From: Candidatus Falkowbacteria bacterium RIFOXYC2_FULL_36_12
GTDB taxonomy: Bacteria; Patescibacteriota; Patescibacteriia; UBA11705
Direction of reading: 5' to 3'
Length of the DNA: 64,000 nt
Assembly: GCA_001778235.1 (NCBI GenBank)
Contig: MFGJ01000001.1
Span: 5,152 to 69,151, forward strand
The translations under genes were made by a program, and so were the position numbers. The notes beneath the pieces were generated by a model. The model was not told the origin of the DNA. It did not search any database and saw nothing but the letters and a program-made list of their open reading frames with translations. Positions 3,467 through 63,102 of this stretch are shown here, piece after piece. The first letter of the stretch is position 1; every line of letters begins with the position of its first letter.

Positions 3467-3710
3467 TATTTCTTCCTATATAATTAATTAAAAGCAACGA
3501 ATTTATTTTAAATTCGCAGATTTGTAGTTTATCTCAATTAAAAAATAACTAATATAAATCAAAACTACATAAAAAGATATGATACAAAAAAGACACACAC
3601 AGATAAAAACTAAGCCAGGTCAACAGAACCAACATGCTTCAAGAGTAGTCAGAAAACACTCTTATAATACCAGTCGCACAAGTAGACCAACAAATTATTT
3701 CGAGCCAGGA

Positions 3711-5402
3711 ATGAATAATGGTGGAGCTCCAAAACTGAAAATTATCGGACTTGGAGGACTAGAGGAAGTTGGTAGGAATATGACCCTACTTGAATATGAT
3801 AAAGATATCATAATCATAGATATGGGATTAATGTTTCCGGATGAAGATATGCCGGGGATTGATTATATTATTCCTGATATATCTTATTTAAAAGGCAAAG
3901 AGAAAAACATCAAAGGAGTTATTATTACTCATGGTCACTATGACCACATTGGTGCGATCTCTCATTTAATTCCTGAACTAGGATTTCCAACCCTATACAT
4001 GACTCCGCTTACTGCCGGATTGGTCAAAAAACGGCACGAGGAATATAAATTGCGAGAGCTAGATATAACAATTGTTGATCCAGAAGTTGACAAGATAAAA
4101 CTTGGTAATTTTCTGATTGAATTTTTCAGAGTTAACCACAATATCCCAGATTCATTCGGCGTAGTTGTTCGGACTCCACTTGGAACTGTTGTTCACACTG
4201 GAGATTTTAAAATCGACTTTGCACCGATTCATGATAAACCAGCTGATTTAAACCGTTTTGCTGAAATTGGTAAAAATGGTGTTACTGCCCTACTGATAGA
4301 CAGTACTAATGCTGGTAACCCAGGGAACCAAATTTCAGAACATGTTGTAGAAAATGAACTGGAAAAGATTTTCCAAGAATCTGACGGTATGATTTTGGCT
4401 GGAACTTTTGCTTCACTATTAAATCGTGTTCAACAATTAATTTCTCTAGCCGAAAAATACGGTCGAAAGGTTTACCTCGATGGACGAAGCATGATATCAA
4501 ATGCGGAAATTGCTCATCAACTGGGATATTTGAAATTCAAACCAACAACTTTGATTGAAGGTGGAGAAATTGATAAATACCCAAGAAACAAGTTGCTAGT
4601 AATAGGGACTGGAGCTCAAGGAGAAAAAAATGCTGTTTTGATGAGAATTGCCAACAAAGATCATAAACACATTGAAATAGAACAAGGAGATTGTGTAATT
4701 TTCTCATCTTCAGTTATTCCTGGAAATGAAAGAACAATTCAAAGCCTAAAAGATACTTTTGCGAGATTGGGAGCGAGAATCTACCACTATAAAATGATGG
4801 ATGTCCACGCAGGAGGACATGCGCAACAAGAAGATTTGAAATTGACTATGCGCCTTTTCAAACCAAAATATATTATGCCGATTGAAGCAAATTATTTCCT
4901 AAGAGTTACCAATGGAGAAGTGGCTGAACAAATTGGTTTTGCTAAAGAAAATATTTTACTCCCTGACAATGGCCAAGTAACTGAATTCAAAAGACAGGGA
5001 CGCGAAGTAATTGCCGAAGTAACAAAAGAAAAAGTGCCGACAGAATATATTATGGTTGATGGTCTTGGTGTTGGAGATGTAAGTAATATTGTGATACGAG
5101 ACCGCCAAGTGCTGGCTGATGATGGGATGTTTGTCGTTATCGCCACTCTTGATGCAAAATCAGGCGAATTGGTTGGTAGTCCAGATATTATTTCCCGTGG
5201 ATTTGTTTATATGAAAGAAAGTAAGAAACTGATTGAAGAAGCTCGAGCTAGGGTGAGAAAAATTTGTAAAGAAAAAGGTAATAATAAGAAATTTACAGGC
5301 ACTGATGAAATCAGGAATAAAATCCGAGATGATGTAGGTAAATTCTTGTTTTTCAAAACTAAGAGAAGACCAATGGTTTTACCGGTGGTGATTGAAGTGT
5401 AA
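3711..5402 (+). CDS. rnj: Ribonuclease J (metallo-beta-lactamase / beta-CASP).
   Basis: KLKIIGLGGLEEVGRNM start, the HGHYDHIG zinc motif, and beta-CASP and C-terminal domains. The track starts the ORF at 3579 with a 44-aa Arg/Ser/Thr-rich extension. The ATG at 3711 (MNNGGAPKLKII) fits the canonical RNase J N-terminus. Confidence 0.85.
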   Translation: MNNGGAPKLKIIGLGGLEEVGRNMTLLEYDKDIIIIDMGLMFPDEDMPGIDYIIPDISYLKGKEKNIKGVIITHGHYDHIGAISHLIPELGFPTLYMTPLTAGLVKKRHEEYKLRELDITIVDPEVDKIKLGNFLIEFFRVNHNIPDSFGVVVRTPLGTVVHTGDFKIDFAPIHDKPADLNRFAEIGKNGVTALLIDSTNAGNPGNQISEHVVENELEKIFQESDGMILAGTFASLLNRVQQLISLAEKYGRKVYLDGRSMISNAEIAHQLGYLKFKPTTLIEGGEIDKYPRNKLLVIGTGAQGEKNAVLMRIANKDHKHIEIEQGDCVIFSSSVIPGNERTIQSLKDTFARLGARIYHYKMMDVHAGGHAQQEDLKLTMRLFKPKYIMPIEANYFLRVTNGEVAEQIGFAKENILLPDNGQVTEFKRQGREVIAEVTKEKVPTEYIMVDGLGVGDVSNIVIRDRQVLADDGMFVVIATLDAKSGELVGSPDIISRGFVYMKESKKLIEEARARVRKICKEKGNNKKFTGTDEIRNKIRDDVGKFLFFKTKRRPMVLPVVIEV

Positions 5403-5419
5403 ACATTACGAATACTAGA

Positions 5420-5450
5420 AAAAAACACGCCCAGAAAGGTGTGTTTTTTA
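5420..5450 (+). terminator. Rho-independent terminator after rnj.
   Basis: ACACGCCCAGAAAGGTGTGT hairpin followed by a T-run. Confidence 0.6.
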
Positions 5451-5454
5451 TTAT

Positions 5455-5895
5455 AAACATAAACTACCAGTGATAGCTAGTGTGGGCGTTTAAAGGCGAA
5501 GCCGTTGAAAGTAGTAGGCATCAGTTTAATCTAAATGTAAGTTGTTGTTTTGCTAAAGTGAGTTATTTTGAGATTGAGTGATTGATTTCGCTTTGCGAGC
5601 TACTTTTGACACCCTGCCTACCGGCAGGCAGGCAAAAGTAGCCAAAAGTGCTGGGGGGATTCAATGCGAATTGAAATGATTATCTCTCGTGCATTGATTA
5701 CGCGCAGAATCCCCCCAGACCTGCCTTCATCAAGATTATGGCAGGCAAGCCCCGATGCTTGGCATGTTCGTGGGGATGAATAATAAAGTAATTGCTTAAT
5801 ACGGTGGAAAATGAATTGCAGGTGATTAAATTATATAAAGATGGAGGCCTTTGCCCGAAAGATAGAAACTACCAGTTGCTATGCTGGTGGTTTTT
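5455..5895. repeat. Dispersed hairpin-rich repeat element, copy 1.
   Basis: It shares long blocks with 18040..18660: TTGAAAGTAGT-GG...TAATTTAAATGTAAGT-GTT--TGTT-GCTAAAG, GTGATTGAT, a CCTGCCTACCGGCAGGCAGG palindrome, GGGGGGATTC...GAATCCCCCC inverted repeats, and CATGTTCGTGGGG. It is flanked by imperfect direct repeats of AAACTACCAGT at 5461 and 5867. Confidence 0.7.
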
Positions 5896-5927
5896 CATTT
5901 GATTTGGCTAATTATAAACAAATATCA

Positions 5928-5956
5928 TTGACAAATCTAGCTTCTTTTGCTATAAT
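5928..5956 (+). promoter_or_regulatory. Consensus sigma70-type promoter for rnpB.
   Basis: TTGACA (5928-5933), a 17-bp spacer, then TATAAT (5951-5956). The RNase P RNA 5' end lies about 8 nt downstream. Confidence 0.7.
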
Positions 5957-5963
5957 GATGTTG

Positions 5964-6562
5964 GTTCCAAATGAGTAGTTCTGTCGCCCCCCCACTAAAA
6001 TTTATGTTTTATGTTTACCTTTTACAAAGCTTAAAGGATAAAAAACTTTATATTGGTTATACAAATGATTTAAGAAGAAGATTTGCTGAACATAATAAAG
6101 GTGAATCTAAGTCAACAAGAAATAGAAGACCTTTTAGATTGGTTTACTATGAAGCCTTTTTATCTCAAATTGATGCAAAAAACAGGGAACGGAAATTAAA
6201 ACTATTCAAAAATACTTACAACCACTTGAAAAAACGGATAGTAAATAGTCTTTTAGAACATAAATTTTAGTGGGGGGGAGGAAAGTCCGAACACTCACAC
6301 TTTGGTGTAGAATGGTAGCGGGTAATTCCCGTCGATTGGCTAGATTTATCATGTCAATCAGAGGTGCGAGCAGTGACGTCAAATTGAGAAATTAATTTGA
6401 ATCCCTTTGGGGATAATCTCTTTCGAAAGATAGAGAGTGAAACGGCTAAATCCTTACTTGAGTGCAAGAGCAAATTAGGTAGCTCGCTTGAACCTACAAG
6501 CAATTGTAGGGCTAGATAGATGACAGTTAAAACAGAATTCGGCTTACTCACTTGTTTGGAAC
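5964..6562 (+). ncRNA. rnpB: RNase P RNA (bacterial type A) with a ~290-nt expansion of helix P3 that contains an ORF.
   Basis: P4 5' strand GGAGGAAAGTCCGAACAC at 6279-6296. GCAAGAGCAAATTAGG matches the GCAAGGCCAAAUAGG region. GGGCTAGATAGATGACAG...ACAGAATTCGGCTTAC matches GGCCUAGAUGAAUGAC...ACAGAACCCGGCUUA. P1 pairs GGTTCCAAATGAG with CTCACTTGTTTGGAACC. A terminator follows at 6570-6596 (GTGACGGCGTCAC plus a T-run). Confidence 0.85.
6004..6270 (+). CDS. GIY-YIG nuclease family protein (UPF0213 / YhbQ-like, 88 aa) lying inside the RNase P RNA P3 helix.
   Basis: MFYVYLLQSLKDKKLYIGYTNDLRRRFAEHNKGESKSTRNRRPFRLVYYEAFL... matches the small GIY-YIG (YhbQ/COG2827) pattern. The ORF sits exactly in the loop of a perfect 20-bp stem (5987-6006 pairs with 6259-6278), so its ATG pairs with the CAT just upstream of its stop. 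The track start at 5971 would read through the rnpB P1/P2 strands, so 6004 is preferred. Confidence 0.75.
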   Translation: MFYVYLLQSLKDKKLYIGYTNDLRRRFAEHNKGESKSTRNRRPFRLVYYEAFLSQIDAKNRERKLKLFKNTYNHLKKRIVNSLLEHKF

Positions 6563-6654
6563 CAAAAAAAGATAGTGACGGCGTCACTGTTTTTTTATTT
6601 GAAAAAACATTAATTTTTAAGTATAATATCTGTAGTTATTTATTTAAATTTATT

Positions 6655-10324: not shown

Positions 10325-10385
10325 CAAAATTTTTCGAATAAGATCATCAATGTATGGTCTTTTTTGTTTGATGTGAATATATATA

Positions 10386-10806
10386 GTTTCCACGAATTAC
10401 GAATATGCTAAGTTTCCACGAATAACGAATCTGCCACCTGCCTACGCTGACTTCAGCTTCGGCAGGCAGGCGAATCTACAAATTGAGGTGAATGATGAAT
10501 GGTTTCCACGAATAACGAATTTGCCACGAATCTACAAATTGAGGTGAATGATGAGTAGTTTCCACAAATAACAAATCTGCCACGAATCTACAAATTGAGG
10601 TGAATGATGAATAGTTTCCACGAATTGCGAATCTGCCACGAATCTACAAATTGAGGTGAATGATGAGTAGTTTCCACAAATAACAAATCTGCCACGAATC
10701 TACAAATTGAGATGAATGATGAATGGTTTCCACGAATAACGAATCTGCCACCTGCCTACGCTGACTTCAGCTTCGGCAGGCAGGCGAATCTACAAATTGA
10801 GTTGTG
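10386..10806. repeat. Tandem array of six ~56-bp direct repeats (plus one truncated unit). The first and last full units each carry a 33-bp palindrome insertion.
   Basis: The unit GTTTCCACGAATAACGAATCTGCCACGAATCTACAAATTGAGGTGAATGATGAAT(A/G) starts at 10412, 10502, 10558, 10614, 10670 and 10726. Units 1 and 6 contain CTGCCTACGCTGACTTCAGCTTCGGCAGGCAGG. There are no unique spacers, so this is not CRISPR. Confidence 0.85.
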
Positions 10807-10992: not shown

Positions 10993-12096
10993 ATGAAAGT
11001 TGCTCTAGTGCACGACCACTTAACTCAAGATGGAGGGGCGGAAAAAGTATTGCAAGCATTGCAGGATGTCTACACAACAAGTCCGACATATACTTTGGTT
11101 TATGACAAAAAGAAAGTCAATAAAATATACCAAAGCCGAGATATTCGGACTTCTTTTATTCAAAAATTTCCATTTGGAGTCAGAAAATTTGAATGGTTTT
11201 TGGTTTTTATGCCAGCGGCGGCGGAAAATTTTGATTTGTCAGAATATGATGTTGTTATTTCTAGTGCTTCAGCTTTTTCTAAAGGCATAATAACTAAACC
11301 AGACGCTCTACACATCTGCTACTGCCACACTCCGACTAGATATCTCTGGACAGATTCAATCAATTACATAAAAGAACTTCGACAAAGCCCAATAATCAAG
11401 AGAACCTTGCCATTAGTACTTACTAAACTACGGATGTGGGATAGATTAGCGGCAGAACGAGTCAATGTTTTTGTTGCCAATTCTCGTGAAGTACAAAAAA
11501 GAATAAAAAAATACTACCGCCGAGAAAGTATTGTTGTTTTTCCGCCAGTAGAAACAAAGAAATTTCAAATCCGACAGAATATCGGCAATTTTTATTTAAC
11601 AGGTGGTAGACTTGTGCCATATAAACGATTTGATTTAACAGTAAAAACTTTCAATCGTCTGGGATTAAAATTGAAGATTTTTGGTGAAGGTCCGGCGTTT
11701 CAAGAACTTAGAAAAATGGCTGGACCCACCATTGAATTTTTAGGGAAAATTGATGAGGAAGCAAAGATTGAATTGTTTGAAACATGTATAGCCTTTATTC
11801 ATCCACAAATTGAAGACTTTGGTATCACTCCGGTTGAGGCTATGGCTGCTGGAAGACCAGTAATTGCTTTCAATCGTGGAGGAGCACTTGATACAATAAT
11901 CGATGGCAAAACTGGAATATTTTTCAATGAACAAGAATGGGAGACGCTGGCCGATACGCTAATCCATTTCAAACCAGAAAACTTTAAACCTGAAGACATA
12001 AGAAACCATGCCTTAAATTTTGATGAGACTGTTTTCAAAAAAAACATGGCTGATTTGGTGAACAAATCTTGGGAAAAATGGCAGAATACTTTATAA
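10993..12096 (+). CDS. Glycosyltransferase family 4 (GT-B, group 1).
   Basis: MKVALVHDHLTQDGGAEKV N-terminus. The C-terminal GT1 motif FIHPQIEDFGITPVEAMAAGRPVIAFNRGGALDTIIDGKTG includes the EX7E-like region. Confidence 0.8.
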   Translation: MKVALVHDHLTQDGGAEKVLQALQDVYTTSPTYTLVYDKKKVNKIYQSRDIRTSFIQKFPFGVRKFEWFLVFMPAAAENFDLSEYDVVISSASAFSKGIITKPDALHICYCHTPTRYLWTDSINYIKELRQSPIIKRTLPLVLTKLRMWDRLAAERVNVFVANSREVQKRIKKYYRRESIVVFPPVETKKFQIRQNIGNFYLTGGRLVPYKRFDLTVKTFNRLGLKLKIFGEGPAFQELRKMAGPTIEFLGKIDEEAKIELFETCIAFIHPQIEDFGITPVEAMAAGRPVIAFNRGGALDTIIDGKTGIFFNEQEWETLADTLIHFKPENFKPEDIRNHALNFDETVFKKNMADLVNKSWEKWQNTL

Positions 12097-12150
12097 CGAG
12101 AACAGCGAGTAAAGCAAGTACAGCGAGAACAGCGAGTACAGCAAGTACGG
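12097..12150. repeat. 9-bp periodic AGCGAG(N)AC repeat (six units); member of a dispersed family.
   Basis: CGAGAACAG CGAGTAAAG CAAGTACAG CGAGAACAG CGAGTACAG CAAGTACGG. Related copies occur at 33355-33405, 39458-39480, 45492-45525 and 61679-61720, and inside rpsA at 62966-63003. Confidence 0.7.
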
Positions 12151-12179
12151 TAATGACCTTACATAATTTTGCTTAATTT

Positions 12180-14545: not shown

Positions 14546-14662
14546 GGAGGAGTGGCCGAATGGTTGAAGGCGGCGGTCTTGAAAACCGCAGGTACGCAAG
14601 TACCCAGGGGTTCTCCGCCAAAGGACGGACTAGTCCTACGGCTAGGATTCCCTCCTCCTCCG
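14546..14662 (+). tRNA. tRNA-Ser (anticodon TGA)-like gene with an apparent ~32-nt insertion in the T-arm; possibly an intron-like element or a pseudogene.
   Basis: The 5' half is canonical class II: acceptor GGAGGAG, D-arm TGGCCGAATGGTTGAAGGC, anticodon stem GCGGT/ACCGC with loop CTTGAAA, and variable arm GGTACGCAAGTACC. The acceptor 3' strand CTCCTCC lies at 14655-14661. GGGGTTC and GATTCCCTC are separated by TCCGCCAAAGGACGGACTAGTCCTACGGCTAG, making the gene 117 nt rather than about 90. Confidence 0.5.
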
Positions 14663-14961: not shown

Positions 14962-15144
14962 ATGGGAAAAGCAAAAAAAAATTTTAGTCTGATTCAACAC
15001 AGAACTGATGAACAAATAAAAAAACTACAAGAAGAAGTGAAACAAGCTCGGCAGGAAGCCAAGGATCAGGATGCAGATATTCTAACTCTTGAAGAACTTG
15101 AAAGAAAATTGCTTCTGAACGATAAAGAAACTGAAAAAAAGTAA
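14962..15144 (+). CDS. Small, highly charged hypothetical protein (60 aa).
   Basis: Preceded by a consensus TTGACA (14896-14901) / TATAAT promoter and a GAGTCGAGCAAACGGAGAAAAAC leader. KKNF..QEEVKQARQEAKDQ helical. Confidence 0.4.
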   Translation: MGKAKKNFSLIQHRTDEQIKKLQEEVKQARQEAKDQDADILTLEELERKLLLNDKETEKK

Positions 15145-15197
15145 CATTGCTAAATCGCAGTGTTTTTTGTTTTATTTATGGGGAAATGATATACTCT
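15145..15197. repeat. 53-bp exact duplicate, copy A. Copy B is at 16121..16173.
   Basis: CATTGCTAAATCGCAGTGTTTTTTGTTTTATTTATGGGGAAATGATATACTCT occurs identically after gene 14962..15144 and after gene 15718..16119. Confidence 0.9.
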
Positions 15198-15717: not shown

Positions 15718-16119
15718 ATGCCACCAACATCATTCTACGAAAAATTGGCGTACGGAACTCATAATTTGATGCTTGCTGATAGCATTCCGACATCCGATCT
15801 TTATCAATTAATTTATGGGATGATGCTGTTTCTTTCTTTTGGTTTTTTTGTTGCAGGGATAATGGCAAATGTGATGCTGGATACTAACCGTTGGTGTTAC
15901 AATAATATGGGAGAAATTGTTGGAATGAGTTCATGTGGCATTGGTTCTACTCTCTTTGCAGTATTTGGACTGAATAGCCTGCTGGCTACAGAGCTCAATG
16001 TATTTTGGGATATCGGTTCTTTAATTGGAGGGTTTTTAGGTATTGCTCTCATTGTTATCACTTACATTACGACGAAATTATACTTTTGTTCAAAAACAAT
16101 CAGACAGACAAGAAACTAA
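15718..16119 (+). CDS. Small integral membrane protein (4 TM); paralogue of 15312..15674.
   Basis: Strong RBS GGATGGAGGAG. Similar TM architecture and conserved segments. Confidence 0.55.
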   Translation: MPPTSFYEKLAYGTHNLMLADSIPTSDLYQLIYGMMLFLSFGFFVAGIMANVMLDTNRWCYNNMGEIVGMSSCGIGSTLFAVFGLNSLLATELNVFWDIGSLIGGFLGIALIVITYITTKLYFCSKTIRQTRN

Positions 16120-16120
16120 A

Positions 16121-16173
16121 CATTGCTAAATCGCAGTGTTTTTTGTTTTATTTATGGGGAAATGATATACTCT
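16121..16173. repeat. 53-bp exact duplicate, copy B.
   Basis: Identical to 15145..15197. Confidence 0.9.
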
Positions 16174-16198: not shown

Positions 16199-18007
16199 AT
16201 GACTAAATTTGAACAATTTTATCGTGAAGCACTTCGAGATTTAAAAAAATTAATTCAGAGATTTCCTCTTGCAATGCTGGCAGCGGTAGCAAGTGTTGTT
16301 CTCGGGATTATTGGTATTGAGATTGAACAATCGGGCAAAGAGGTGCCACTTGGTTTGATGTACACCCTCATGTCTTTGGTTTTGACTTTCCCGATGTTTG
16401 TCTTGGCTGAACTTATTTCAGAGAGTCTTAACTGGGATGTGACAAAAAAATATCTATTAAAATTGGTGCCAATCTTAATTGGTGTGGTGTACTTTTTCTC
16501 GCTGATGCTACCCTACCAGGAAATATCAGAAAGGCAAGGAATTGAGTTTTTCTTACTAAATGTTATTTTTTATTTCTTGATTTTGGTTGCACCCTTTATA
16601 AACAATAATTTCCGTTCTAAATTATGGAACTTTAGTAAACAAATTATTATAAGATTATTTTTTTCAGTTCTCTTCACTGGAGTAATTTTTGCAGGTGTTT
16701 CTCTGGCTATCACTGCAGTGCAATATTTATTTGAACTGAAAATTGACAATGAGATATTTATAGAAATCTGGATTTCTGCAGTTGGATTATTTGGGATAAA
16801 TTTTCTTTTGGCTGGTGTGCCAACGCTAAAAGAAATGAATGATGAAATTGACTATCCGAAATTATTGAAAGTGTGTGTTCAGTATATTTTATTACCATTA
16901 CTGGCAGTTTATGGAATAATTTTGTATGTTTATACTCTAAGAATTATTTTCACATCTGCTTGGCCGAAGGAAGGTGTTGTCCAGTGGGTCATGGTTTATG
17001 GAATTGGAGGATTTGTAACTTTTGCCCTAGCAAAACCTTTAACAATGCATGTTAAATTATTAAAAAAAATATTTACTGGTTTTTTTATTTCAGTTTTACC
17101 ACTGCTCATAGTCTATTTTTCAGCTATTGGTATTCGAATTTCTGAATATGGAGTGACAGTTGACCGTTACCTTGTTGTATTGTTTGGACTTTGGTTAATC
17201 CCTGTTACATTTTATTATTTATTAAGTAGGAAAAAACACCTACACTGGTTAATTGGCTCTGTTGTAATCTGTGTTTTGATCTTCCTGTATGGTCCATGGA
17301 ATGGGTATAATATTTCTTTTAACAGCCAGGTACAAAGATTGGAAAACTTATTAATAAAAAACAATCTTCTGATTGATGGGAAACTACAGAAAGCTCCTGA
17401 CAATTTTTCTATCTCTGAATATACTGAAATTGAATCGATCTCTCGATATTTATATCGAAGTTATGAGGTAGAAAAGATTAACAAATGGCTTGGCGAAGAA
17501 AATGTTGAACTTATTAATAAAAATATTCTACAAAAAAATGGTAAAACATATTATGCACATTCAAGGGCTTTTCTTCAGGCAATTAATTTAATAAAAATAG
17601 ATAGTGTTATTGATAAACCTGCGATACTGTTTAGCTATCAACCTGAATCCGATGTCTTCCCAGTTGCAACATATGATTATGTCTATTCATTTCAAGGTTT
17701 AAGTGATGATGCAGTAAGGTTTCCTGAAAAGTTTTACAGAGATACGATCTCAACATCATTAACAACAAATGAATTGCTTATAATGAAAAATTCGAACATC
17801 TTAATTGAGATAAACCTAACGGATATAGCTTATAAATTGATTAAAAAATCTACCCCTTACAATATCCCGATTGATGATATGATTATCTACGCGAGCAATG
17901 AAAAGATTGAGATCAAACTGCTTCTAAGTAATTTACAATTTAGCCTTGATAATGAACGACCTCTAATTAAAACCGTGAGTGGATTGGTTGCTTTCTCACT
18001 GAAATAA
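16199..18007 (+). CDS. Large polytopic membrane protein (about 10-12 TM) with a C-terminal soluble domain; function unknown, possibly envelope or glycan related.
   Basis: 602 aa with long hydrophobic helices through residue ~370, then a hydrophilic C-terminal domain. It sits within the glycosylation locus. Confidence 0.45.
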   Translation: MTKFEQFYREALRDLKKLIQRFPLAMLAAVASVVLGIIGIEIEQSGKEVPLGLMYTLMSLVLTFPMFVLAELISESLNWDVTKKYLLKLVPILIGVVYFFSLMLPYQEISERQGIEFFLLNVIFYFLILVAPFINNNFRSKLWNFSKQIIIRLFFSVLFTGVIFAGVSLAITAVQYLFELKIDNEIFIEIWISAVGLFGINFLLAGVPTLKEMNDEIDYPKLLKVCVQYILLPLLAVYGIILYVYTLRIIFTSAWPKEGVVQWVMVYGIGGFVTFALAKPLTMHVKLLKKIFTGFFISVLPLLIVYFSAIGIRISEYGVTVDRYLVVLFGLWLIPVTFYYLLSRKKHLHWLIGSVVICVLIFLYGPWNGYNISFNSQVQRLENLLIKNNLLIDGKLQKAPDNFSISEYTEIESISRYLYRSYEVEKINKWLGEENVELINKNILQKNGKTYYAHSRAFLQAINLIKIDSVIDKPAILFSYQPESDVFPVATYDYVYSFQGLSDDAVRFPEKFYRDTISTSLTTNELLIMKNSNILIEINLTDIAYKLIKKSTPYNIPIDDMIIYASNEKIEIKLLLSNLQFSLDNERPLIKTVSGLVAFSLK

Positions 18008-18039
18008 TACTTAAAAGCTTACCAGTTATTGGTGAGCTT

Positions 18040-18660
18040 TTTTATTATTTGGACATAAATCATCAGCGACAGCTGGTGTGTGTGCTTAAAAGCGCAGCAA
18101 TTGAAAGTAGTGGTTAGCGGTGTAATTTAAATGTAAGTGGTTGATGTTGCTAAAGCAAGTTTTTTTTAGAATAAGTGATTGATAAAGCTTCGCTTGACAC
18201 TTTTTGATGGCAAAAAGTGTCCAAAAACCATTGGGGGCTTTAATTGCTACTTTTGAACACTATTTTGTGTTTTGAACACGGCAAGAAAGCCCCCAAACCC
18301 GAGGTTTACCATGTTCGTGGGGTTTAAAGTTAGTGATTGGTTTTGCTAAAGCAGGTTTTTTGAAAAAAGTGATTGATTGCCTGCCTACCCTGCCTACCGG
18401 CAGGCAGGCGGCAGGCAGGCAAAAAGGACGAACCGCCTACACTAAAGTTTCGGCGGTCAAGAAAGTTTTGGGGGTTTTAAAACAAATGCTTTTGAACATC
18501 TTCGTGTGGTTCATGACCGCGATAAACCCCCCAAACACCGAGGCTATTCATCTTAGGTGTTTTGAAATTAAATAAATGATTTTTTTGATTGATATTGCTA
18601 AAGCAAGCTTTTTTTGACCTGTGAGATAGAAACTACCTCCGTGAGCTGATGGTTTTTTAT
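18040..18660. repeat. Dispersed hairpin-rich repeat element, copy 2, containing two internal modules.
   Basis: Two modules each have GCTAAAGCA-GTTTTTT, GTGATTGAT, a hairpin, a GGGGG...CCCCC long stem, then ACCGAGG. Hairpins: GACACTTTTTGATGGCAAAAAGTGTC, then CCTGCCTACCCTGCCTACCGGCAGGCAGGCGGCAGGCAGG. Stems: GGGGGCTTT...AAAGCCCCC and GGGGGTTT...AAACCCCCC. ACCATGTTCGTGGGG and the flanking GATAGAAACTACC motif match copy 1. Track ORF 18333..18575 inside it is probably spurious. Confidence 0.7.
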
Positions 18661-18754
18661 TTGGAAAAATGTTTTATTTTTGCTAAAATACAAGTATTAA
18701 TATAATAATCTTATTGATTCCGTAACAAGTACGGAATAGACAGACAGAGAGTGT

Positions 18755-19870
18755 ATGAAAATTGCTATTGATGCGAGAATGTATGGGGAAAAACAGACAA
18801 CAGGGATTGGTCAGTATATTAAGCAAATTACTGATAATATTTTTCGGATTGATGAAGAAAATGAGTATATAATGTTCATGCGAGAGCCTGAATTTTCTAC
18901 ATATTTTCCACCAAGTCCAAGAGTAAAAAAAATTTTAGTAACTCCTCGCTGGTATACCTATGCTGAACAATTTAAATTGCCGTTTGAATTTGCCAAAGAA
19001 AAATTTGATCTGATTCATTATCCGCATTTTAATTCACCTATTTTTTTTAGAAAAAAGTCTGTGTGTACTATTCATGATGTCACACCTTTTCTTTTTCCAG
19101 GACATAGAATGAAATCAATTATTAGGCGCCTTGGATATCGAACTGTTTTTGCTGGGACTGTAAATAATGCTAAGAAAATAATCACTGTTTCCGAAAGCAC
19201 AAAAAACGGGATAATTAAGCATTTTAAAATAGATTCTGAAAAAATAAAAGTCATTTATGAAGGTGTGGATGAAAGGTTCAAAGTTACCGTGGAAAATGGT
19301 ATAATAAGTAGTGTAAAAAAGAGGTATAATATTACTGGACCTTTTATTCTTTTTGTAGGTGTTTGGCGCAATCATAAAAACATTGAAGGGCTGATTTCAG
19401 CTTATGAAATTCTCAAGAAAAAATATCATATCCGACAGAAATTAGTTCTGGCTGGACAGGAAGACAAGGACTATTCAAATATCAGAACAATGATTGAAAA
19501 TTCAGGTTACAAAGACTGCATTATTACTCCGGGATTTATTGAGAGCAAGGATTTGCCAAGCCTCTATAGCGGAGCTGATGTATTTGTTATCCCGTCATTC
19601 ATTGAAGGATTTGGCCTGATTGCTCTCGAAGCTCAAAAATGTGGCTGTCCAGTTGTAGCCAGCAATATTACAAGTTTGCCTGAAATTTTAGCTGATTCTG
19701 CCATATTGTTTGATCCGTATAACAAAAATCAGATGGCTGAAAAAATTTACACTATTTTGGATAATAAAAAATTACAACAAGAATTGAGAGAGAAAGGATT
19801 TCAGAATGTTGAAAGATTTTCTTGGGAAAAAGCTGCCAGAGAAACTATTGAAGTCTATACCGAGCGTTGA
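18755..19870 (+). CDS. Glycosyltransferase family 4 (group 1).
   Basis: MKIAIDARMYGEKQTTGIGQY start. C-terminal FVIPSFIEGFGLIALEAQKCGCPVVASNITSLPEILADSAILFDP. Confidence 0.8.
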   Translation: MKIAIDARMYGEKQTTGIGQYIKQITDNIFRIDEENEYIMFMREPEFSTYFPPSPRVKKILVTPRWYTYAEQFKLPFEFAKEKFDLIHYPHFNSPIFFRKKSVCTIHDVTPFLFPGHRMKSIIRRLGYRTVFAGTVNNAKKIITVSESTKNGIIKHFKIDSEKIKVIYEGVDERFKVTVENGIISSVKKRYNITGPFILFVGVWRNHKNIEGLISAYEILKKKYHIRQKLVLAGQEDKDYSNIRTMIENSGYKDCIITPGFIESKDLPSLYSGADVFVIPSFIEGFGLIALEAQKCGCPVVASNITSLPEILADSAILFDPYNKNQMAEKIYTILDNKKLQQELREKGFQNVERFSWEKAARETIEVYTER

Positions 19871-33027: not shown

Positions 33028-33351
33028 TTATAATGCTTCTAATTTTTGTTTTAGACTGGCTTTGTCTTGGATTCCGAGCAATCTTTCTTTTTCTTCACCA
33101 TTTTTGAAAATAATAATTGTCGGAATACTCATAACGCCATATTCCCCTGCCTTTGCTTGGCTTTCATCGACATTGAGTTTGGCAATTTTTATACCTGAAC
33201 CAGCTAACTCCTCGGACAATTCATCAATTATTGGACCCATTACCTGGCAAGGGCCACACCAAGTAGCAAAAAAATCCACTAAAACTGGTTTATCTTTGTA
33301 ATTTTTTACCTCTTGATCAAAATTTGCATCAGTTAAATTTAATTCTGACAT
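33028..33351 (-). CDS. trxA: Thioredoxin.
   Basis: WCGPCQ active site. 107 aa. Confidence 0.9.
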   Translation of the reverse strand: MSELNLTDANFDQEVKNYKDKPVLVDFFATWCGPCQVMGPIIDELSEELAGSGIKIAKLNVDESQAKAGEYGVMSIPTIIIFKNGEEKERLLGIQDKASLKQKLEAL

Positions 33352-33437
33352 AGTTTTAAGCGAGTAAAGCGAGAACAGCGAGTAAAGTTATGACTGTAGT
33401 GGCTTTATTTACTGAACTGACTGATCTTGCCTTTTAA

Positions 33438-36841: not shown

Positions 36842-36893
36842 ATCGCTTTATATTATAAGGTGATTTTTTTAATTATTTAATTTTACCCTTATA

Positions 36894-37167
36894 CCCTGAA
36901 ATAAATTCAGGGTGACAAGTGAGAGATCCTGAAAACAGTACCCGGAGATCCTGAAACAAGTTCAGGATGACGAGTGTAGGGTTCAGGATGACGAGTGTAG
37001 GGTTTTTGATGACGAGTGGTGTGTGGTCCCGTCACTCTGAACTTGTTTCAGAGTCTCCTGAATTGACATTAGAGGAAGGAATGGAAAAATTAATTTGAAT
37101 TTTGAAGAATTATATCCTGAAACAAGTTCAGGATGACGAGTGTAGGGTTCAGGGTGACAAGTGTGGG
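36894..37167. repeat. Intergenic array of palindromic hairpin repeats: CCTGAAACAAGTTCAGG followed by (G/A)TGAC(G/A)AGTGTAGGG.
   Basis: Units such as ATCCTGAAACAAGTTCAGGATGACGAGTGTAGGGTTCAGGATGACGAGTGTAGGG appear in both orientations (CTGAACTTGTTTCAG). They are followed by the GC-rich hairpin GCCGACCCGTTGCCGAGCAGCGGGTCGGC. The same family lies inside the CDS at 53985..54238. Confidence 0.8.
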
Positions 37168-45483: not shown

Positions 45484-45603
45484 ATTTTTGAAAGCGAGAA
45501 CAGCGAGTTAAGCGAGGTAAGCAAATGAAGTAAAAATGAGACTTATTTGCTGTACTAGCTGTATCAGCTGAACTGACTATATATTTATATATAATTTATT
45601 GAT

Positions 45604-53172: not shown

Positions 53173-54791
53173 TGTTTTTTCAATAATTTTCTAACAACTT
53201 CTCGATCATCCCAAGGAATATATTTTCCGCCGGCAACGGCCATAGCTCTTTCTGAACCTTTGCCCGTGAGTAGGACTAAGTCTCCTGCCTGTGCCAAACT
53301 TAGGGCTCTTTCGATGGCGGAACGGCGGTCAAGAATTTTAAATAGATTTTGATTTTCAATTTTGCCCTTTTCGATAGCTCCGTCAGCAACTTGATTAATA
53401 ATAGTCTGCGGATCTTCATCATAAGGATCTTCATTGGTAACAATTACAATGTCAGCTTTGGATCCAGCCATGTTTCCAAGAATTGGACGGCGAGCTTTGT
53501 CTCGACCTCCGCCACAAGAACCGAGGACATGAATCAATTTTTTATAAGGCAAATCTGAATTTTTAATTTGATCCAAAGTTTCATAAAGTTTTTTCATGGA
53601 ACCTGGCTCTGGAGCATAATCGACCATAATTGAAAAATTTTGGCCTTGATTAATTAGCTCTGTGCGACCTGGAACAACTGGAACAGATTCAAGGGCTGAT
53701 TTAATTTTTGTTATTTCAATTCCTTCTTGTGTAGCAATTGCAATGGCTGGCAGAGAGTTTTCAACATTGAAGGCGCCGATGAGTTGTAAGTTGATAGTTG
53801 TTAGATTATAGTTGAAAGATGTGCCTTTGACTGAAACCTTAATGTCAGAAGCTTTGAAGTCGGCTTGCTTCTTTACGCTGAAGGTATTTTTTTTGTCAGC
53901 TGGGAAATTGAGAAAATATTCAGCGTGTTCATCGTCGATGTTTATAATTGAGATTTTTGGGATTGTTTTATTTTTATCATCATACCCTGAAACAAGTTCA
54001 GGGTGACAAGTGGGAGATCCTGAAACAAGTTCAGGGTGACAAGTGGGAGATCCTGAAACAAGTTCAGGATGACAAGTGTGGTGGGTGTGGAGTGTGCTTT
54101 GGGAAGTAGGTGTTTCAGGATGACAAGTGGGAGATCCTGAAACAAGTTCAGGATGACAAGTGTGGTAGGTGTGGAGTGTGCTTTGGGGAGTAGGTGTTTC
54201 AGGATGACAAGTGGGGTGTTCGGGGTGACAAGTGTGGGACTCTGACTGACAAGCGATAATATCCGAATAATTCTTTTTTGGCATTTTTGTCAGGTGTGAG
54301 AAGAATTTCCCTTTGGCTTTTTTATAATTTTCAAAACCGCCATGTGCCTCTATGTGCTCTGGAGTTAAGTTGGTAAAAACCGCATAATCATAATTTATTG
54401 CAATGTGCCGGTATTGTTCAACTCCTTGAGATGAAGTTTCAATTACAGCATATTTACAACCAGCATCAACCATTTTCTTTAGATATTTCTGAAGTTGAAA
54501 GCGACCGAGCATGGTCATTTTTTTATCATTTAATTTTTCTTCATTTGCTACCTTGAATAAAACTGTAGATAAAGCGCCAACTTTGTCTCCGCCAGCTTCA
54601 AGCGCTTTGGAAATAAGACTAACCGTAGTTGATTTGCCATTGGTGCCGGTAACTCCGATGACGATCATTTTATTGGAAGGATTACCATAAATAAAAGAAC
54701 CAAAAACCGCTAAACTCTTGTAATAAAACTGGAGTAAAAAATTGGGAATTAATTTTTTTATAAGATTTTTCATATAATTAAATACTATCAT
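53169..54791 (-). CDS. murE: Mur ligase family protein (MurE-like UDP-N-acetylmuramoyl-tripeptide ligase) carrying an in-frame ~85-aa repeat-encoded insertion.
   Basis: P-loop GVTGTNGKSTT, TPEHIEAHGGFENYKKAKGKFF, ISIINIDDEHA, GRTELINQGQNFSIMVDYA, and C-terminal DRRSAIERALSLAQAGDLVLLTGKGSE. The N-terminal domain is short (P-loop at residue ~50). Residues ~185-270 (HTCHPEHPTCHPETPTPQSTLHTYHTCHPELVSGSPTCHPE...) are encoded by the hairpin repeat array. Confidence 0.65.
   Translation of the reverse strand: MIVFNYMKNLIKKLIPNFLLQFYYKSLAVFGSFIYGNPSNKMIVIGVTGTNGKSTTVSLISKALEAGGDKVGALSTVLFKVANEEKLNDKKMTMLGRFQLQKYLKKMVDAGCKYAVIETSSQGVEQYRHIAINYDYAVFTNLTPEHIEAHGGFENYKKAKGKFFSHLTKMPKKNYSDIIACQSESHTCHPEHPTCHPETPTPQSTLHTYHTCHPELVSGSPTCHPETPTSQSTLHTHHTCHPELVSGSPTCHPELVSGSPTCHPELVSGYDDKNKTIPKISIINIDDEHAEYFLNFPADKKNTFSVKKQADFKASDIKVSVKGTSFNYNLTTINLQLIGAFNVENSLPAIAIATQEGIEITKIKSALESVPVVPGRTELINQGQNFSIMVDYAPEPGSMKKLYETLDQIKNSDLPYKKLIHVLGSCGGGRDKARRPILGNMAGSKADIVIVTNEDPYDEDPQTIINQVADGAIEKGKIENQNLFKILDRRSAIERALSLAQAGDLVLLTGKGSERAMAVAGGKYIPWDDREVVRKLLKKQ
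53985..54238. repeat. Hairpin repeat array (same family as 36894..37167) inside the MurE-like CDS, with the reading frame preserved.
   Basis: Three units of the 33-bp AGATCCTGAAACAAGTTCAGGGTGACAAGTGGG, then two 66-bp variants (…GTGTGGTGGGTGTGGAGTGTGCTTTGGGAAGTAGGTGTTTCAGGATGACAAGTGGG…). All unit lengths are multiples of 3. Confidence 0.85.
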
Positions 54792-61459: not shown

Positions 61460-61830
61460 GATGAATTCATCTCCTTGTCTGTTTGGCGTTGTTTGTAGGG
61501 AACAATAATAGTTTATTTTATAATTTATTTTAGAATTTGTCAAGTCTAGCTGGTGATGAGTAAAAACATATCACGATTCTACCAATACTTGACATTTAAT
61601 ATAATTCATATTAAACTTAAGTCACTTATTTATAATCTAGCTACAAGCTAGACTTGCCCGAACAAGAATAAAGCGAGGTCAGCGAGTACAGCGAGTAAAG
61701 TTATGACTGTACTTGATCCTCCAGCTTAATCAATAACGGGCGGGTTAATCATTTATTTGGTAAATCCGCTAAAGGCGGAATTTTTATTACTTATTTTAAT
61801 AAAAGCTCTACGGATAGACCAAAAATTTAT

Positions 61831-63102
61831 ATGGTAGCAACTAAATCAAAAAAAATAGCCCAGAAAAAAGCTTTGCAGGAAAAAGACCTTAATTCAAAAA
61901 TGGCGCAACTTTTGGAAAAAGATATTACAAACTTCAAACCACTTGAAATGAATCAATTGGTAAAAGGCACTGTGATCAATGCGACAAAAACTGAAGTCTT
62001 GGTTGATGTTGAGGGCATCACTACTGGGATAATCCGAGGCAAAGAATTGTCTTATGATACCGAAGAACAACAGCAACTAAAAGTTGGTGACAATGTTGAA
62101 GCTACGGTGATTGATCTTGAAAATGAAATCGGCATGCTTGAACTGTCATTTCGTTTTGCCAGTCATCAGAAAGCATGGGAAAATTTGGATATATTCAGAC
62201 AAGAGAATAAAATTGTTAGCGCTAAAATTCTTGATGCCAATAAAGGTGGTTTGTTAATCACTGTCAATGGAGTAAAAGGATTTTTGCCTGTATCACAATT
62301 AAATCCTGAACATTATCCTCGAGTCCCTGGCGGAGATAAAAATAAAATTTTGGATAAACTGAAAAGTTATGTCGGAGAATCATTTGAAGCTAAAGTTATT
62401 GATGTTGATGAATCTCAAGAAAAATTAATTGTTTCAGAAAAAGCTGCCTGGGAAGAAACCCAGAAAGATGTCCTTGATAAATACAAAGTCGGAGATGTAA
62501 TTGACGGAACAATAACAGCTGTAACTGATTTTGGAATCTTTATTAAATTCGGTGAAAACCTTGAAGGATTGGTTCATATTTCTGAACTTGCTTGGCAGAG
62601 AATTGATAACCCAGCTGAACTATTCAAGGTTGGACAAGATATCAAAGCAGAAATTATCAATATTGAAGGCTCAAAGATTTTCTTGTCAATCAAAAAACTT
62701 CAGACTGACCCATGGACTGACATTGAAAAGAAATACAAGGTTGGTCAATTGGTAAAAGGTAAAGTATTAAAAGTAAATCCATTTGGATTATTTGTCGAGC
62801 TAGACAAGGACATCCACGGACTTGCTCATGTGTCTGAACTGTCAAATAAAACCATTACCAACACTGAAGATATTGCCAAGCCTGGAGATGAAAAAGAATT
62901 TAAGATTGTTTCAATAGAACCAAATGAACATAGACTTGGTTTGAGCTTGAAAGATCTTGAGGGAAAAGCGAGTTCAGCGAGTACAGTAAATACAGCAAGT
63001 AAAGATGCTGTAGAGGAGAAAGAGACTGAAAAAGTTGAGGATGTTAAGCAGAAGGAACATGTTGAAACAACTGAAGACGAAAAAACAGTAGATAAAGAAT
63101 AA
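61831..63102 (+). CDS. rpsA: 30S ribosomal protein S1 (four S1 domains) with a Glu/Lys-rich C-terminal tail.
   Basis: Repeated S1 OB-fold signatures (GxVxG…GLxHxSE…). The tail codons KASSASTVNTASK are encoded by an AGCGAG-type 9-mer repeat at 62966-63003. Confidence 0.85.
   Translation: MVATKSKKIAQKKALQEKDLNSKMAQLLEKDITNFKPLEMNQLVKGTVINATKTEVLVDVEGITTGIIRGKELSYDTEEQQQLKVGDNVEATVIDLENEIGMLELSFRFASHQKAWENLDIFRQENKIVSAKILDANKGGLLITVNGVKGFLPVSQLNPEHYPRVPGGDKNKILDKLKSYVGESFEAKVIDVDESQEKLIVSEKAAWEETQKDVLDKYKVGDVIDGTITAVTDFGIFIKFGENLEGLVHISELAWQRIDNPAELFKVGQDIKAEIINIEGSKIFLSIKKLQTDPWTDIEKKYKVGQLVKGKVLKVNPFGLFVELDKDIHGLAHVSELSNKTITNTEDIAKPGDEKEFKIVSIEPNEHRLGLSLKDLEGKASSASTVNTASKDAVEEKETEKVEDVKQKEHVETTEDEKTVDKE

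What the first reader, a model, noticed from the sequence alone, without database searches (positions are those of the whole stretch)
5455..5895. Family of ~450-620 bp hairpin-rich dispersed elements with GGGGG/CCCCC-closed stems; two copies, at 5455..5895 and 18040..18660.
The two copies share ordered blocks: TTGAAAGTAGT-GG, TAATTTAAATGTAAGT, GCTAAAG-AGTTTTTT, GTGATTGAT, a CCTGCCTACC/GGCAGGCAGG palindrome, 60-70-nt stem-loops closed by G5-6...C5-6 runs, ACCGAGG, ACCATGTTCGTGGGG, and a terminal GATAGAAACTACC. Copy 1 is bounded by AAACTACCAGT direct repeats, as in a target-site duplication. Copy 2 carries two internal modules, which shows modular amplification. No transposase is present. The elements look like non-autonomous structured repeats (MITE-like) or a multi-copy structured RNA family. 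One copy abuts rnpB and the other sits inside the glycosylation locus.
Basis: seen in the sequence. Interest (0 to 1): 0.6.

Follow-up and report, generated by a model that had tools for sequence, protein, structure and literature searches.

The report
Modular hairpin-rich intergenic repeat family
Two intergenic stretches of this groundwater CPR bacterium are copies of one non-coding, hairpin-packed, modular repeat, most like the BOX or mosaic repeats of other bacteria; it is a new sequence family of a familiar kind, and its function and copy number remain unproven.

Summary
Windows 5450-5920 and 18045-18665 are two copies of one non-coding element. Each has a conserved 5' block, then one (copy 1) or two and a half (copy 2) internal modules, then a 3' block ending in a T-run. 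A third copy with two modules lies on a 1.6-kb metagenome contig (L127). Three hairpins per module keep perfect pairing while their sequences differ: 13 of 30 pairs show double compensatory changes. A 10-bp helix joining the two ends also covaries. No Rfam family matches, and there is no phage or plasmid similarity. Syntenic loci of five related lineages lack the element, and so do the 10 kb beyond each window end. Better candidates flank each copy: ATTATAAACA and TTATTTGGA. Removing the element restores a plain terminator-to-promoter junction. My best reading is a lineage-specific composite intergenic repeat of the BOX/NIME/BIME type. It also carries nested copies of a smaller palindrome (CCTGCCTACC/GGCAGGCAGG). 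A paralogous structured sRNA family is not excluded. Interest is modest.

The parts
5450..5459 (+). Copy 1, left flanking direct repeat ATTATAAACA (candidate target-site duplication)
   Evidence: On the + strand of the window it occurs only here and at 5911. P=0.0025 in composition-matched shuffles of the flanks.
5457..5531 (+). Copy 1, conserved 5' block: ACATAAAC, the 5' arm of the closing helix (5461-5477) and TTGAAAGTAGT (5505-5515)
   Evidence: It is 77-81% identical among the three copies. No covarying internal structure was found.
5532..5586 (+). Copy 1, S1 segment that opens each module: TAAATGTAAGT...TTGCTAAAG...T-run...AGTGATTGAT
   Evidence: TTGCTAAAG is identical in the module copies of the window and in L127 module 1 (TTGTTAAAG in L127 module 2); AGTGATTGAT is identical in all five full modules.
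5588..5642 (+). Copy 1, hairpins H0 (5588-5598) and H1 (5599-5642). H1 carries a nested 20-nt palindrome CCTGCCTACCGGCAGGCAGG at its tip (5613-5632).
   Evidence: The stems are perfectly paired in every copy with different sequences.
5651..5718 (+). Copy 1, hairpin H2: a 68-nt stem-loop with a 12-bp outer stem CUGGGGGGAUUC/GAAUCCCCCCAG
   Evidence: In L127 the outer stem is CUGGGUGAACAA/UUGUUCACCCAG, so the G/C run is not invariant but the pairing is kept.
5720..5775 (+). Copy 1, hairpin H3 (CCTGCC...GGCAGG, 5720-5745; absent from copy 2) and hairpin H4 region with CATGTTCGTGGGG (5750-5775)
5776..5895 (+). Copy 1, 3' block: a degenerate S1 remnant, AGATAGAAACTACC (5860-5873) and a terminator-like hairpin plus T-run (5864-5895). 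The 3' arm of that hairpin (5878-5893) also pairs with the 5' end of the element.
   Evidence: One search lists the terminator-like site (13 pairs followed by a T-run). One search shows the closing helix in the MFE and the centroid structures.
5911..5920 (+). Copy 1, right flanking direct repeat ATTATAAACA, 8 nt upstream of the rnpB promoter (-35 box at 5928)
18045..18053 (+). Copy 2, left flanking direct repeat TTATTTGGA
   Evidence: P=0.03 by shuffling. It overlaps the T-tail of the upstream gene's terminator (18013-18041).
18053..18127 (+). Copy 2, conserved 5' block, with the 5' arm of the closing helix AAATCATCAGC at 18057-18067
18128..18325 (+). Copy 2, module A: S1 18128-18183, H0 18185-18195, H1 18196-18221, H2 18231-18296, H4 18295-18325
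18324..18562 (+). Copy 2, module B: S1 18324-18377, a doubly nested CCTGCCTACC/GGCAGGCAGG palindrome 18380-18419, an extra hairpin 18427-18458, H2 18468-18534, H4 18533-18562
   Evidence: One population variant (L136) lacks 18412-18433.
18585..18655 (+). Copy 2, truncated third S1 (18585-18615) and the 3' block: AGATAGAAACTACC 18624-18637, then the 3' arm of the closing helix GCTGATGGTTT 18645-18655, then a T-run
18657..18665 (+). Copy 2, right flanking direct repeat TTATTTGGA, overlapping the -35 box (TTGGAA at 18661) of the promoter-like site of the downstream glycosyltransferase gene

Best explanation
This is a lineage-specific composite intergenic repeat. It is a non-autonomous DNA element with the architecture 5' block - (S1 + hairpins H0, H1, H2, sometimes H3, and H4) repeated 1 to 2.5 times - 3' block ending in a stem plus T-run.

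Shown:
- There are at least three diverged copies (52-81% identical) in unrelated gene contexts.
- The number of modules varies between copies.
- The hairpins are kept as perfect palindromes while their sequences change.
- The two ends are complementary.
- A smaller palindromic unit (CCTGCCTACC/GGCAGGCAGG) is nested inside the element, and also inside another repeat array at 10383-10806.
- Each window copy sits exactly between the terminator of the upstream gene and the promoter of the downstream gene, bracketed by a 9-10-bp direct repeat.

Inferred:
- The element arrived by insertion, duplicating 9-10 bp of target. It was mobilised in trans by an enzyme encoded elsewhere, or spread by recombination.
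- Modules are gained and lost by unequal recombination or slippage between the S1 segments.
- The perfect stems are maintained at the level of single-stranded nucleic acid, by hairpin-templated correction or by selection for folding.
- If transcribed, by read-through or from a weak TATTAT box, it folds into a compact multi-hairpin RNA. Its closing helix plus U-run would stop transcription before the next gene.
For: - The same ordered blocks occur in two window loci, and only there.
- A third copy with two modules, the second degenerate, is on contig L127 next to a uvrC-like gene.
- Module counts of 1, 2.5 and 2, plus a 22-nt deletion variant in one population, show length instability of the kind reported for BOX elements (PMC3049150).
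- H0, H1 and H2 are perfectly paired in every copy with different sequences. 13 of 30 predicted pairs carry double compensatory changes among just three sequences.
- The 10-bp end-to-end helix is kept with compensatory changes. It is AAACUACCAG/CUGGUGGUUU in copy 1 and AAAUCAUCAG/CUGAUGGUUU in copy 2.
- Flanking direct repeats of 10 and 9 bp are each unique to the two flanks on the + strand. Their shuffle P values are 0.0025 and 0.03.
- Deleting the element plus one repeat leaves terminator - short spacer - promoter.
- The element is absent from the syntenic regions of five related lineages whose RNase J is 72-79% identical.
- No Rfam family matches.
- The nested small palindrome occurs 5 times at 3 loci.
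- Three of six independent assemblies break inside copy 1, as often happens at repeats.
Against: - Only three copies are known. None was found in the 10 kb beyond either window end, so 'dispersed family' rests on a small sample.
- The terminal inverted repeats are not conserved in sequence between copies. They covary instead, which is unusual for transposase-recognised ends.
- The candidate target duplications overlap conserved positions by 1-3 nt. In copy 2 they are partly T-tail sequence. In copy 1 the right repeat lies 18 nt beyond the 3' arm of the closing helix.
- No transposase or RAYT-type gene was found among the 30 window ORFs scanned.
- All three copies have the same orientation as their flanking genes, and copy 1 has a good intrinsic terminator. 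Both features fit an expressed RNA gene equally well.
Confidence: 0.5

Rival explanations
1. This is a family of paralogous, large (about 450-600 nt), modular structured non-coding RNA genes. The repeated modules present conserved unpaired motifs (UUGCUAAAG, AGUGAUUGAU, UUCGUGG) between stable hairpins. One example of such a function is an RNA that binds or sequesters a protein, in the way CsrB/RsmZ-type RNAs carry variable numbers of binding modules. The transcript ends at its own stem plus U-run.
For: - The + strand folds with z=-5.0 and -3.6. Both MFE structures are closed by a helix between the 5' end and the 3' arm that precedes the U-run, and that helix covaries.
- The only wobble pairs seen (U.G in the closing helix and in the 4-bp UUGC/GYRR mini-hairpin) are pairs on the + strand and would be C.A mismatches on the - strand. 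All five substitutions in the mini-hairpin are of the pairing-preserving kind.
- There is strong covariation in H0, H1 and H2.
- Copy 1 ends with a terminator-like hairpin.
- All three copies point the same way as their neighbouring genes.
- The sequence blocks between the hairpins are more conserved than the hairpins themselves.
Against: - No convincing promoter is present. Only TTACCA-18-TATTAT (9 of 12) precedes copy 2, there is nothing comparable before copy 1 or L127, and the neighbouring rnpB shows this organism uses canonical TTGACA-17-TATAAT.
- About 90 bp of H0/H1/H2 stems contain no G.U pair at all, and many compensations are transversions. That looks more like DNA palindromes.
- The - strand folds as significantly as the + strand (z=-4.1 and -7.1).
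- The conserved 5' block and S1 show no covarying structure.
- The element is absent from five related lineages at the syntenic sites, and no Rfam family matches.
- Module B tolerates a 22-nt deletion through two hairpins. L127 module 2 has lost half of H2.
Confidence: 0.3
2. This is cis-acting DNA: arrays of binding sites (the repeated RGTGATTGAT and TTGCTAAAG motifs) for a DNA-binding protein. They would organise or insulate the terminator-promoter junctions upstream of rnpB and the glycosyltransferase operon.
For: - Short motifs recur 3-4 times per element with exact conservation.
- Both window copies sit immediately upstream of promoters.
- The perfect palindromes are compatible with recognition at the DNA level.
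Against: - The downstream genes are unrelated (rnpB, a GT4 glycosyltransferase, unknown in L127).
- Relatives with the same genes lack the element.
- The long hairpins and the end-to-end complementarity have no role in this model.
- No candidate binding protein is linked to the element.
Confidence: 0.1
3. This is a one-off local segmental duplication with later decay, with no family and no function.
For: Only two copies lie in 84 kb of this genome, 12.6 kb apart.
Against: - A third copy exists in a different gene context on L127.
- The copies are only 52-81% identical, yet they retain perfect hairpins through compensatory change.
- The flanks are not duplicated apart from the 9-10-bp repeats.
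Confidence: 0.07

Closest known systems
BOX elements of Streptococcus pneumoniae and S. suis (boxA - boxB(n) - boxC composite repeats)
   Same: - Both are composite intergenic repeats with a fixed 5' module and a fixed 3' module around a variable number of tandem internal modules.
- The termini pair with each other, while the internal module folds largely on its own, so module number can vary without disturbing the rest.
- Both are highly base-paired if transcribed.
- Both lie in intergenic regions, mostly co-oriented with genes, and length varies between strains.
- Both are found mixed with and inserted into other small repeats (PMC3049150, read).
   Different: - The modules here are about 200-250 nt, against 45-59 nt for boxA, boxB and boxC, so the whole element is 450-620 nt.
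- No sequence relationship was tested or is expected.
- The host is a CPR/Patescibacteria bacterium.
- Only 3 copies are known, against about 100 or more per pneumococcal genome.
- The terminal complementarity covaries here rather than being conserved.
MITEs (for example Correia elements of Neisseria, or RUP)
   Same: It is non-coding, under 1 kb, AT-rich overall and highly base-paired, with inverted repeats near the termini and short direct repeats flanking each copy. It is absent from the same site in relatives.
   Different: - The inverted-repeat sequences differ between copies.
- The candidate duplications are long (9-10 bp) and not cleanly adjacent to the inverted repeats.
- No partner IS is known.
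- The internal tandem modules are atypical for a MITE.
BIME / NIME mosaic elements and REP palindromic units
   Same: It is a mosaic of palindromic units and conserved linker motifs. A short GC-rich palindrome (CCTGCCTACC/GGCAGGCAGG) recurs in different intergenic arrays and is even nested within itself at 18380-18419.
   Different: The palindromic unit is only a passenger here. The main element has long specific hairpins and unique 5' and 3' blocks. No RAYT-type transposase was seen.
Modular protein-sequestering sRNAs (CsrB/CsrC, RsmX/Y/Z)
   Same: Paralogous RNAs with a variable number of repeated hairpin or motif modules, ending in an intrinsic terminator.
   Different: There are no GGA-type CsrA motifs, no promoter and no conservation across relatives. 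The modules are much larger. Nothing here was tested experimentally.

Membership tests
MITE | Terminal inverted repeats | tested here: inconclusive
   10-11-bp complementary segments lie near both ends: 5461-5470 with 5884-5893, and 18057-18067 with 18645-18655. Their sequences differ between copies and change in a compensatory way. In copy 1 the 3' one lies 18 nt inside the candidate duplication.
MITE | Target-site duplication flanking each copy | tested here: inconclusive
ATTATAAACA (5450 and 5911) and TTATTTGGA (18045 and 18657) flank the copies, with shuffle P=0.0025 and 0.03. There are only two cases. They overlap conserved element positions by 1-3 nt, and no empty site was available.
MITE | Many dispersed copies in one genome | tested here: inconclusive
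   There are 2 copies in about 84 kb of this genome, plus 1 on a short contig from a sample that also holds this organism. The rest of the genome could not be searched. My genome-collection scan was lost to a pattern that was too loose.
MITE | Ends resembling those of an autonomous IS in the same host | not testable with these tools
   No transposase was found among the 30 window ORFs scanned.
BOX-type composite repeat | Fixed 5' and 3' modules around a variable number of tandem internal modules | tested here: met
   The 5' block and the 3' block (AGATAGAAACTACC plus a stem and T-run) are shared by both window copies. There are 1, 2.5 and 2 internal modules in copy 1, copy 2 and L127.
BOX-type composite repeat | Termini pair with each other; the internal module folds independently | tested here: met
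   The MFE and centroid structures of both copies are closed by the end-to-end helix, with module hairpins folding locally.
BOX-type composite repeat | Sequence homology to boxA, boxB or boxC | not tested
Module sizes differ four- to five-fold, so homology is not expected. The claim is 'built like BOX', not 'is a BOX element'.
Known structured RNA family (Rfam 15) | Match to a curated covariance model | tested here: not met
   There is no hit at gathering score in the window. Only chance-level hits (miRNA and snoRNA models, E of 0.01 or more) appear over either copy at E<=10.
Independent structured ncRNA gene | Base pairs supported by covariation | tested here: met
   13 of 30 pairs in H0, H1 and H2 have double compensatory changes, and the closing helix covaries. 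Caveats: there are only 3-4 sequences, all stems are perfect Watson-Crick, and the result is equally compatible with DNA hairpins.
Independent structured ncRNA gene | Own promoter and terminator | tested here: inconclusive
   Copy 1 has a terminator-like hairpin. Copy 2 has only the long-range helix plus a T-run. The only promoter-like site is a 9-of-12 match before copy 2.
Independent structured ncRNA gene | Conservation in related genomes | tested here: not met
   nhmmer with each copy and with the module profile finds nothing in L130, L133 or L146-L150, or in 116 loci from the genome collection.
REP/BIME palindromic unit (for the nested CCTGCCTACC/GGCAGGCAGG unit only) | Short GC-rich imperfect palindrome recurring in unrelated intergenic sites | tested here: met
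   GGCAGGCAGG occurs at 5623, 10461, 10775, 18399 and 18410. It is inserted into H1 of copy 1, doubly nested in module B, and inserted twice into the 56-nt tandem array at 10383-10806.

The most novel reading that the evidence does not exclude
The elements are genes for a previously undescribed class of large modular structured RNA confined to one CPR lineage. The conserved unpaired motifs between the hairpins would bind a protein or another RNA, and the mutually exclusive pairing of the 3' arm (with the 5' end or with the local AAACTACC arm) would act as a conformational switch controlling termination.
Probability: 0.15. Interest if true: 0.6.

Novelty: new member of a known kind. Interest (0 to 1): 0.3.

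Why it matters
Small interspersed repeats have hardly been described in CPR/Patescibacteria, whose genomes are small and streamlined. My library searches found no paper linking the two.

This 64-kb window carries at least four repeat families. They occur in intergenic DNA and nest within one another, which is unexpected for a streamlined genome. They also break metagenome assemblies.

If the element is mobile, it points to an active transposition or recombination system in this lineage. If it is expressed, it would be a large lineage-specific RNA. Either way it is a useful strain marker. The practical significance is modest unless expression or mobility is demonstrated.

Tried and rejected
- **Rfam.** I searched at gathering score and at E<=10 over both copies. 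There was no family.
- **Genome-collection scan.** The pattern TTGCTAAAG-N(12-24)-AGTGATTGAT was too loose. 
- **Viral contigs.** Two patterns gave only chance matches in phage coding sequence.
- **Metagenome scan.** A tighter pattern gave 5 hits, of which one (L127) is real.
- **Six-frame pseudo-protein search.** I used a six-frame translation of both copies to look for spurious ORFs called in other copies. Nothing scored.
- **Spurious ORF in module B.** The 80-aa ORF is called as a gene in several assemblies, but its only match among 1.84 billion representatives is its own sequence. It is not a real protein family, and no other copy is visible that way.
- **The uvrC-like fragment next to the L127 copy.** There was no exact match, only 53-62% relatives, whose contigs gave nothing. 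I cannot say whether L127 is from the same genome.
- **Syntenic loci of relatives and window extensions.** No copies were found.
- **Phage and plasmid collections.** No similarity.
- **Strand discrimination by folding energy.** This was inconclusive because both strands fold far better than shuffles.
- **Kinds of element rejected on anatomy:**
  - Riboswitch, T-box or leader: each copy is separated from the downstream gene by its own T-run and that gene's promoter.
  - CRISPR, integron attC array, retron or group I/II intron remnant: there are no spacers or cassettes, no RT, and no matching Rfam model.
  - Promoter array: no sigma-70-like sites occur inside the element.

Full report
**Context**

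The window is 35% G+C. It comes from a groundwater (Rifle aquifer) CPR/Patescibacteria bacterium. Identical proteins occur on contigs of NCBI assemblies GCA_001778155.1 and GCA_001778075.1 and on many groundwater metagenome contigs. The nearest RNase J proteins carry names such as Parcubacteria and Falkowbacteria.

Copy 1 lies between the RNase J gene (3579-5402) and rnpB. The RNase J terminator is at about 5421-5449. The rnpB promoter is TTGACA-17-TATAAT at 5928-5956.

Copy 2 lies between a DUF4153 membrane-protein gene (16199-18007) and a GT4 glycosyltransferase gene (18755-19870). The upstream terminator is at 18013-18041. The downstream promoter-like site is TTGGAA-17-TAAAAT at 18661-18689.

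Yes.

The exception is CCGAGG, which only copy 2 has.
- Alignment shows one architecture:
  - A 5' block starting ACATAAA.
  - A module made of a conserved, mostly unpaired segment S1 (TAAATGTAAGT..TTGCTAAAG..T-run..AGTGATTGAT), followed by hairpins H0, H1 and H2 (the 64-68-nt stem-loop closed by G and C runs), sometimes H3, then H4 (..CATGTTCGTGGGG).
  - A 3' block (AGATAGAAACTACC, then a stem, then a T-run).
- Copy 1 has one module. Copy 2 has two modules and a truncated third S1.
- A profile of the modules finds these and nothing else in the 64 kb.
- Copies are 77% identical over the 5' block plus S1, and 55-71% over modules.

**More copies**

- A metagenome pattern scan returned one true relative, L127 (1622 nt, JGI sample 3300025081). 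That sample also holds a contig of this organism.
- L127 has the same 5' block (80% identical) and two modules. The second module has lost the 5' half of H2.
- Its left neighbours are a uvrC-like GIY-YIG gene and a 68-aa ORF. Its last 320 nt are 62% G+C and look chimeric, so its 3' end is unreliable.
- No copy was found in the 10 kb beyond either end of the window.
- No copy was found in about 20-kb syntenic loci of five related lineages whose RNase J is 72-79% identical.
- There was no similarity in the phage or plasmid collections.
- Rfam has no matching family.
- My single genome-collection scan was wasted on a pattern that was too loose. The copy number in the whole genome therefore remains unknown.

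**Structure**

- The + strands fold well below shuffled controls: z=-5.0 for copy 1, -3.6 for copy 2 and -5.7 for L127.
- Both window copies are closed, in the MFE and the centroid, by a helix between the 5' end and the segment just before the terminal T-run.
- That helix covaries. It is AAACUACCAG/CUGGUGGUUU in copy 1 and AAAUCAUCAG/CUGAUGGUUU in copy 2. Each is 10 bp with one U.G pair, at different positions.
- H0 (UCGC/GCGA, AAGC/GCUU, ACGC/GCGU), H1 (GCUAC.., GACAC.., CAUAC..) and the H2 outer stem (CUGGGGGGAUUC, CUGGGUGAACAA, UUGGGGGCUUU) are perfectly paired in every copy although the sequences differ.
- RNAalifold on three sequences gives 30 pairs, of which 13 have double compensatory changes. 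For that alignment I replaced the palindrome nested in copy 1's H1 loop with the ATGG loop of the other copies.
- The G5/C5 closure is therefore not the conserved feature. The pairing is.

Three observations weaken an RNA-only reading:

- About 90 bp of these stems contain no G.U pair, and many compensations are transversions.
- The reverse strands fold as significantly as the forward strands: z=-4.1 and -7.1.
- The best-conserved sequence, the 5' block and S1, shows no covarying structure.

Two observations favour the + strand:

- The closing helix has U.G pairs.
- Five of five substitutions in the tiny UUGC/GYRR hairpin are of the wobble-preserving kind. By my own count this has about a 3% chance under neutrality, which is a weak test.

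**Ends and flanks**

  - The 3' copy sits in the block AGATAGAAACTACC shared with copy 2.
  - The 5' copy is the conserved terminus.
  - In copy 1 both can pair with the same 3' arm. The local pairing is the terminator-like hairpin 5864-5895.
- Outside the conserved part there are other direct repeats: ATTATAAACA at 5450 and 5911, and TTATTTGGA at 18045 and 18657. Each is unique to those two places on the + strand.
- Composition-matched shuffles of the flanks give P=0.0025 and 0.03. Random placements in the window give 0.3% and 1.1%.
- Removing the element plus one repeat leaves the upstream terminator, about 10 nt, then the downstream promoter. That is a plausible empty site.
- This is suggestive of insertion but not proof:
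  - There are only two cases.
  - The repeats overlap conserved bases by 1-3 nt.
  - In copy 2 the repeat is partly terminator tail.
  - The upstream terminator of copy 2 (GCTTACCAGTTATTGGTGAGC) itself resembles copy 1's 3' hairpin.

**Instability and nesting**

- One population variant (L136) lacks 22 nt (18412-18433) spanning parts of two hairpins of module B.
- Three of six independent assemblies of the RNase J locus end inside copy 1.
- The 20-nt palindrome CCTGCCTACCGGCAGGCAGG sits at the tip of H1 in copy 1. The other copies have a 4-nt loop at that position.
- The same palindrome is nested within itself in module B. A longer variant of it is inserted twice into an unrelated 56-nt tandem array at 10383-10806.
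- The element is thus a mosaic that has itself been a target for a smaller repeat.

**Interpretation**

The combination of features matches the composite small interspersed repeats of other bacteria. Those features are:

- fixed ends around a variable number of tandem modules;
- complementary termini;
- locally folding modules;
- an intergenic, co-oriented position;
- length polymorphism;
- nesting with other repeats;
- absence from relatives.

The closest match is the BOX elements (boxA-boxB(n)-boxC). The same properties are described for them in PMC3049150. This element is four to five times larger and unrelated in host.

I therefore rate 'lineage-specific composite intergenic repeat, probably inserted and possibly still mobile' at 0.5.

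'Paralogous structured sRNA genes' gets 0.3. The orientation, the terminator, the covarying closing helix and the conserved unpaired motifs fit that reading. The missing promoter, the perfect palindromes, the decaying modules and the lack of conservation do not.

The two readings are not exclusive, because BOX-type repeats are transcribed and can affect neighbouring genes.

Cis-acting binding-site arrays (0.1) and a simple segmental duplication (0.07) are less likely.

**Novelty and score**

The sequence family is new to Rfam and to the collections I could search. Its kind is familiar. The sample is small (three copies), and neither function nor mobility is demonstrated. Interest is 0.3.

The most novel reading still open is a new large modular RNA with a termination switch. 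I give it a probability of about 0.15.

Noticed in passing
window 5960-6565 (+): rnpB (bacterial RNase P RNA, class A) appears to carry a roughly 280-nt insertion in its P3 hairpin. The insertion encodes an 88-99-aa GIY-YIG nuclease (ORF 5971/6004-6270; Pfam PF01541, E=1e-16). The C7 run at 5987-5993 and the G7 run at 6272-6278 bracket the ORF. Rfam scores only 71 bits against a threshold of 100, and aligns only 6231-6562. Relatives have an uninterrupted rnpB: L133 12704-13082 scores 103 bits, and L130 has the same 5' sequence AGTTCTGTCGCCC with a roughly 100-nt P3 and no ORF.
   Followed up: partly
window 10383-10806: A tandem array of five to six 56-nt units (GTTTCCACGAATAACGAATCTGCCACGAATCTACAAATTGAGGTGAATGATGA..) lies in an intergenic region. 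Two of the units are interrupted by the palindrome CTGCCTACGCTGACTTCAGCTTCGGCAGGCAGGC, a relative of the one nested in the studied elements.
   Followed up: partly
window 36876-37167 and 53967-54238: A second dispersed repeat family is built from 21/33-nt units (ATCCTGAAACAAGTTCAGGATGACAAGTG..), each containing a short hairpin. It occurs at two loci 17 kb apart.
   Followed up: no
window 12085-12170, 33349-33407, 45492-45541, 61662-61720, 62948-63015: Runs of a 9-nt unit (AGCGAGTAC / AGCGAGAAC) occur at five separate places, mostly at gene boundaries.
   Followed up: no
window 14546-14662 (+): A 117-nt tRNA-like match (Rfam tRNA, 38 bits, full model) sits inside a cluster of four tRNA genes. 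ARAGORN does not call it. It may be a tRNA with an insertion or intron of about 45 nt.
   Followed up: no
window 15134-15197 and 16110-16173: A 64-nt duplicate, 94% identical, contains a terminator-like hairpin (ACATTGCTAAATCGCAGTGT plus a T-run). It lies upstream of two adjacent genes.
   Followed up: no
L127 1300-1622: The contig carrying the third copy switches from 35% to 62% G+C at about position 1300, so it is probably a chimeric assembly. The 3' end of that copy therefore cannot be trusted.
   Followed up: partly
window 18333-18575 (+): An 80-aa ORF inside module B is annotated as a gene in several public assemblies (L134, L137, L138, L140). Its only match among 1.84 billion representative proteins is its own sequence, so it is almost certainly a spurious gene call.
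   Followed up: yes
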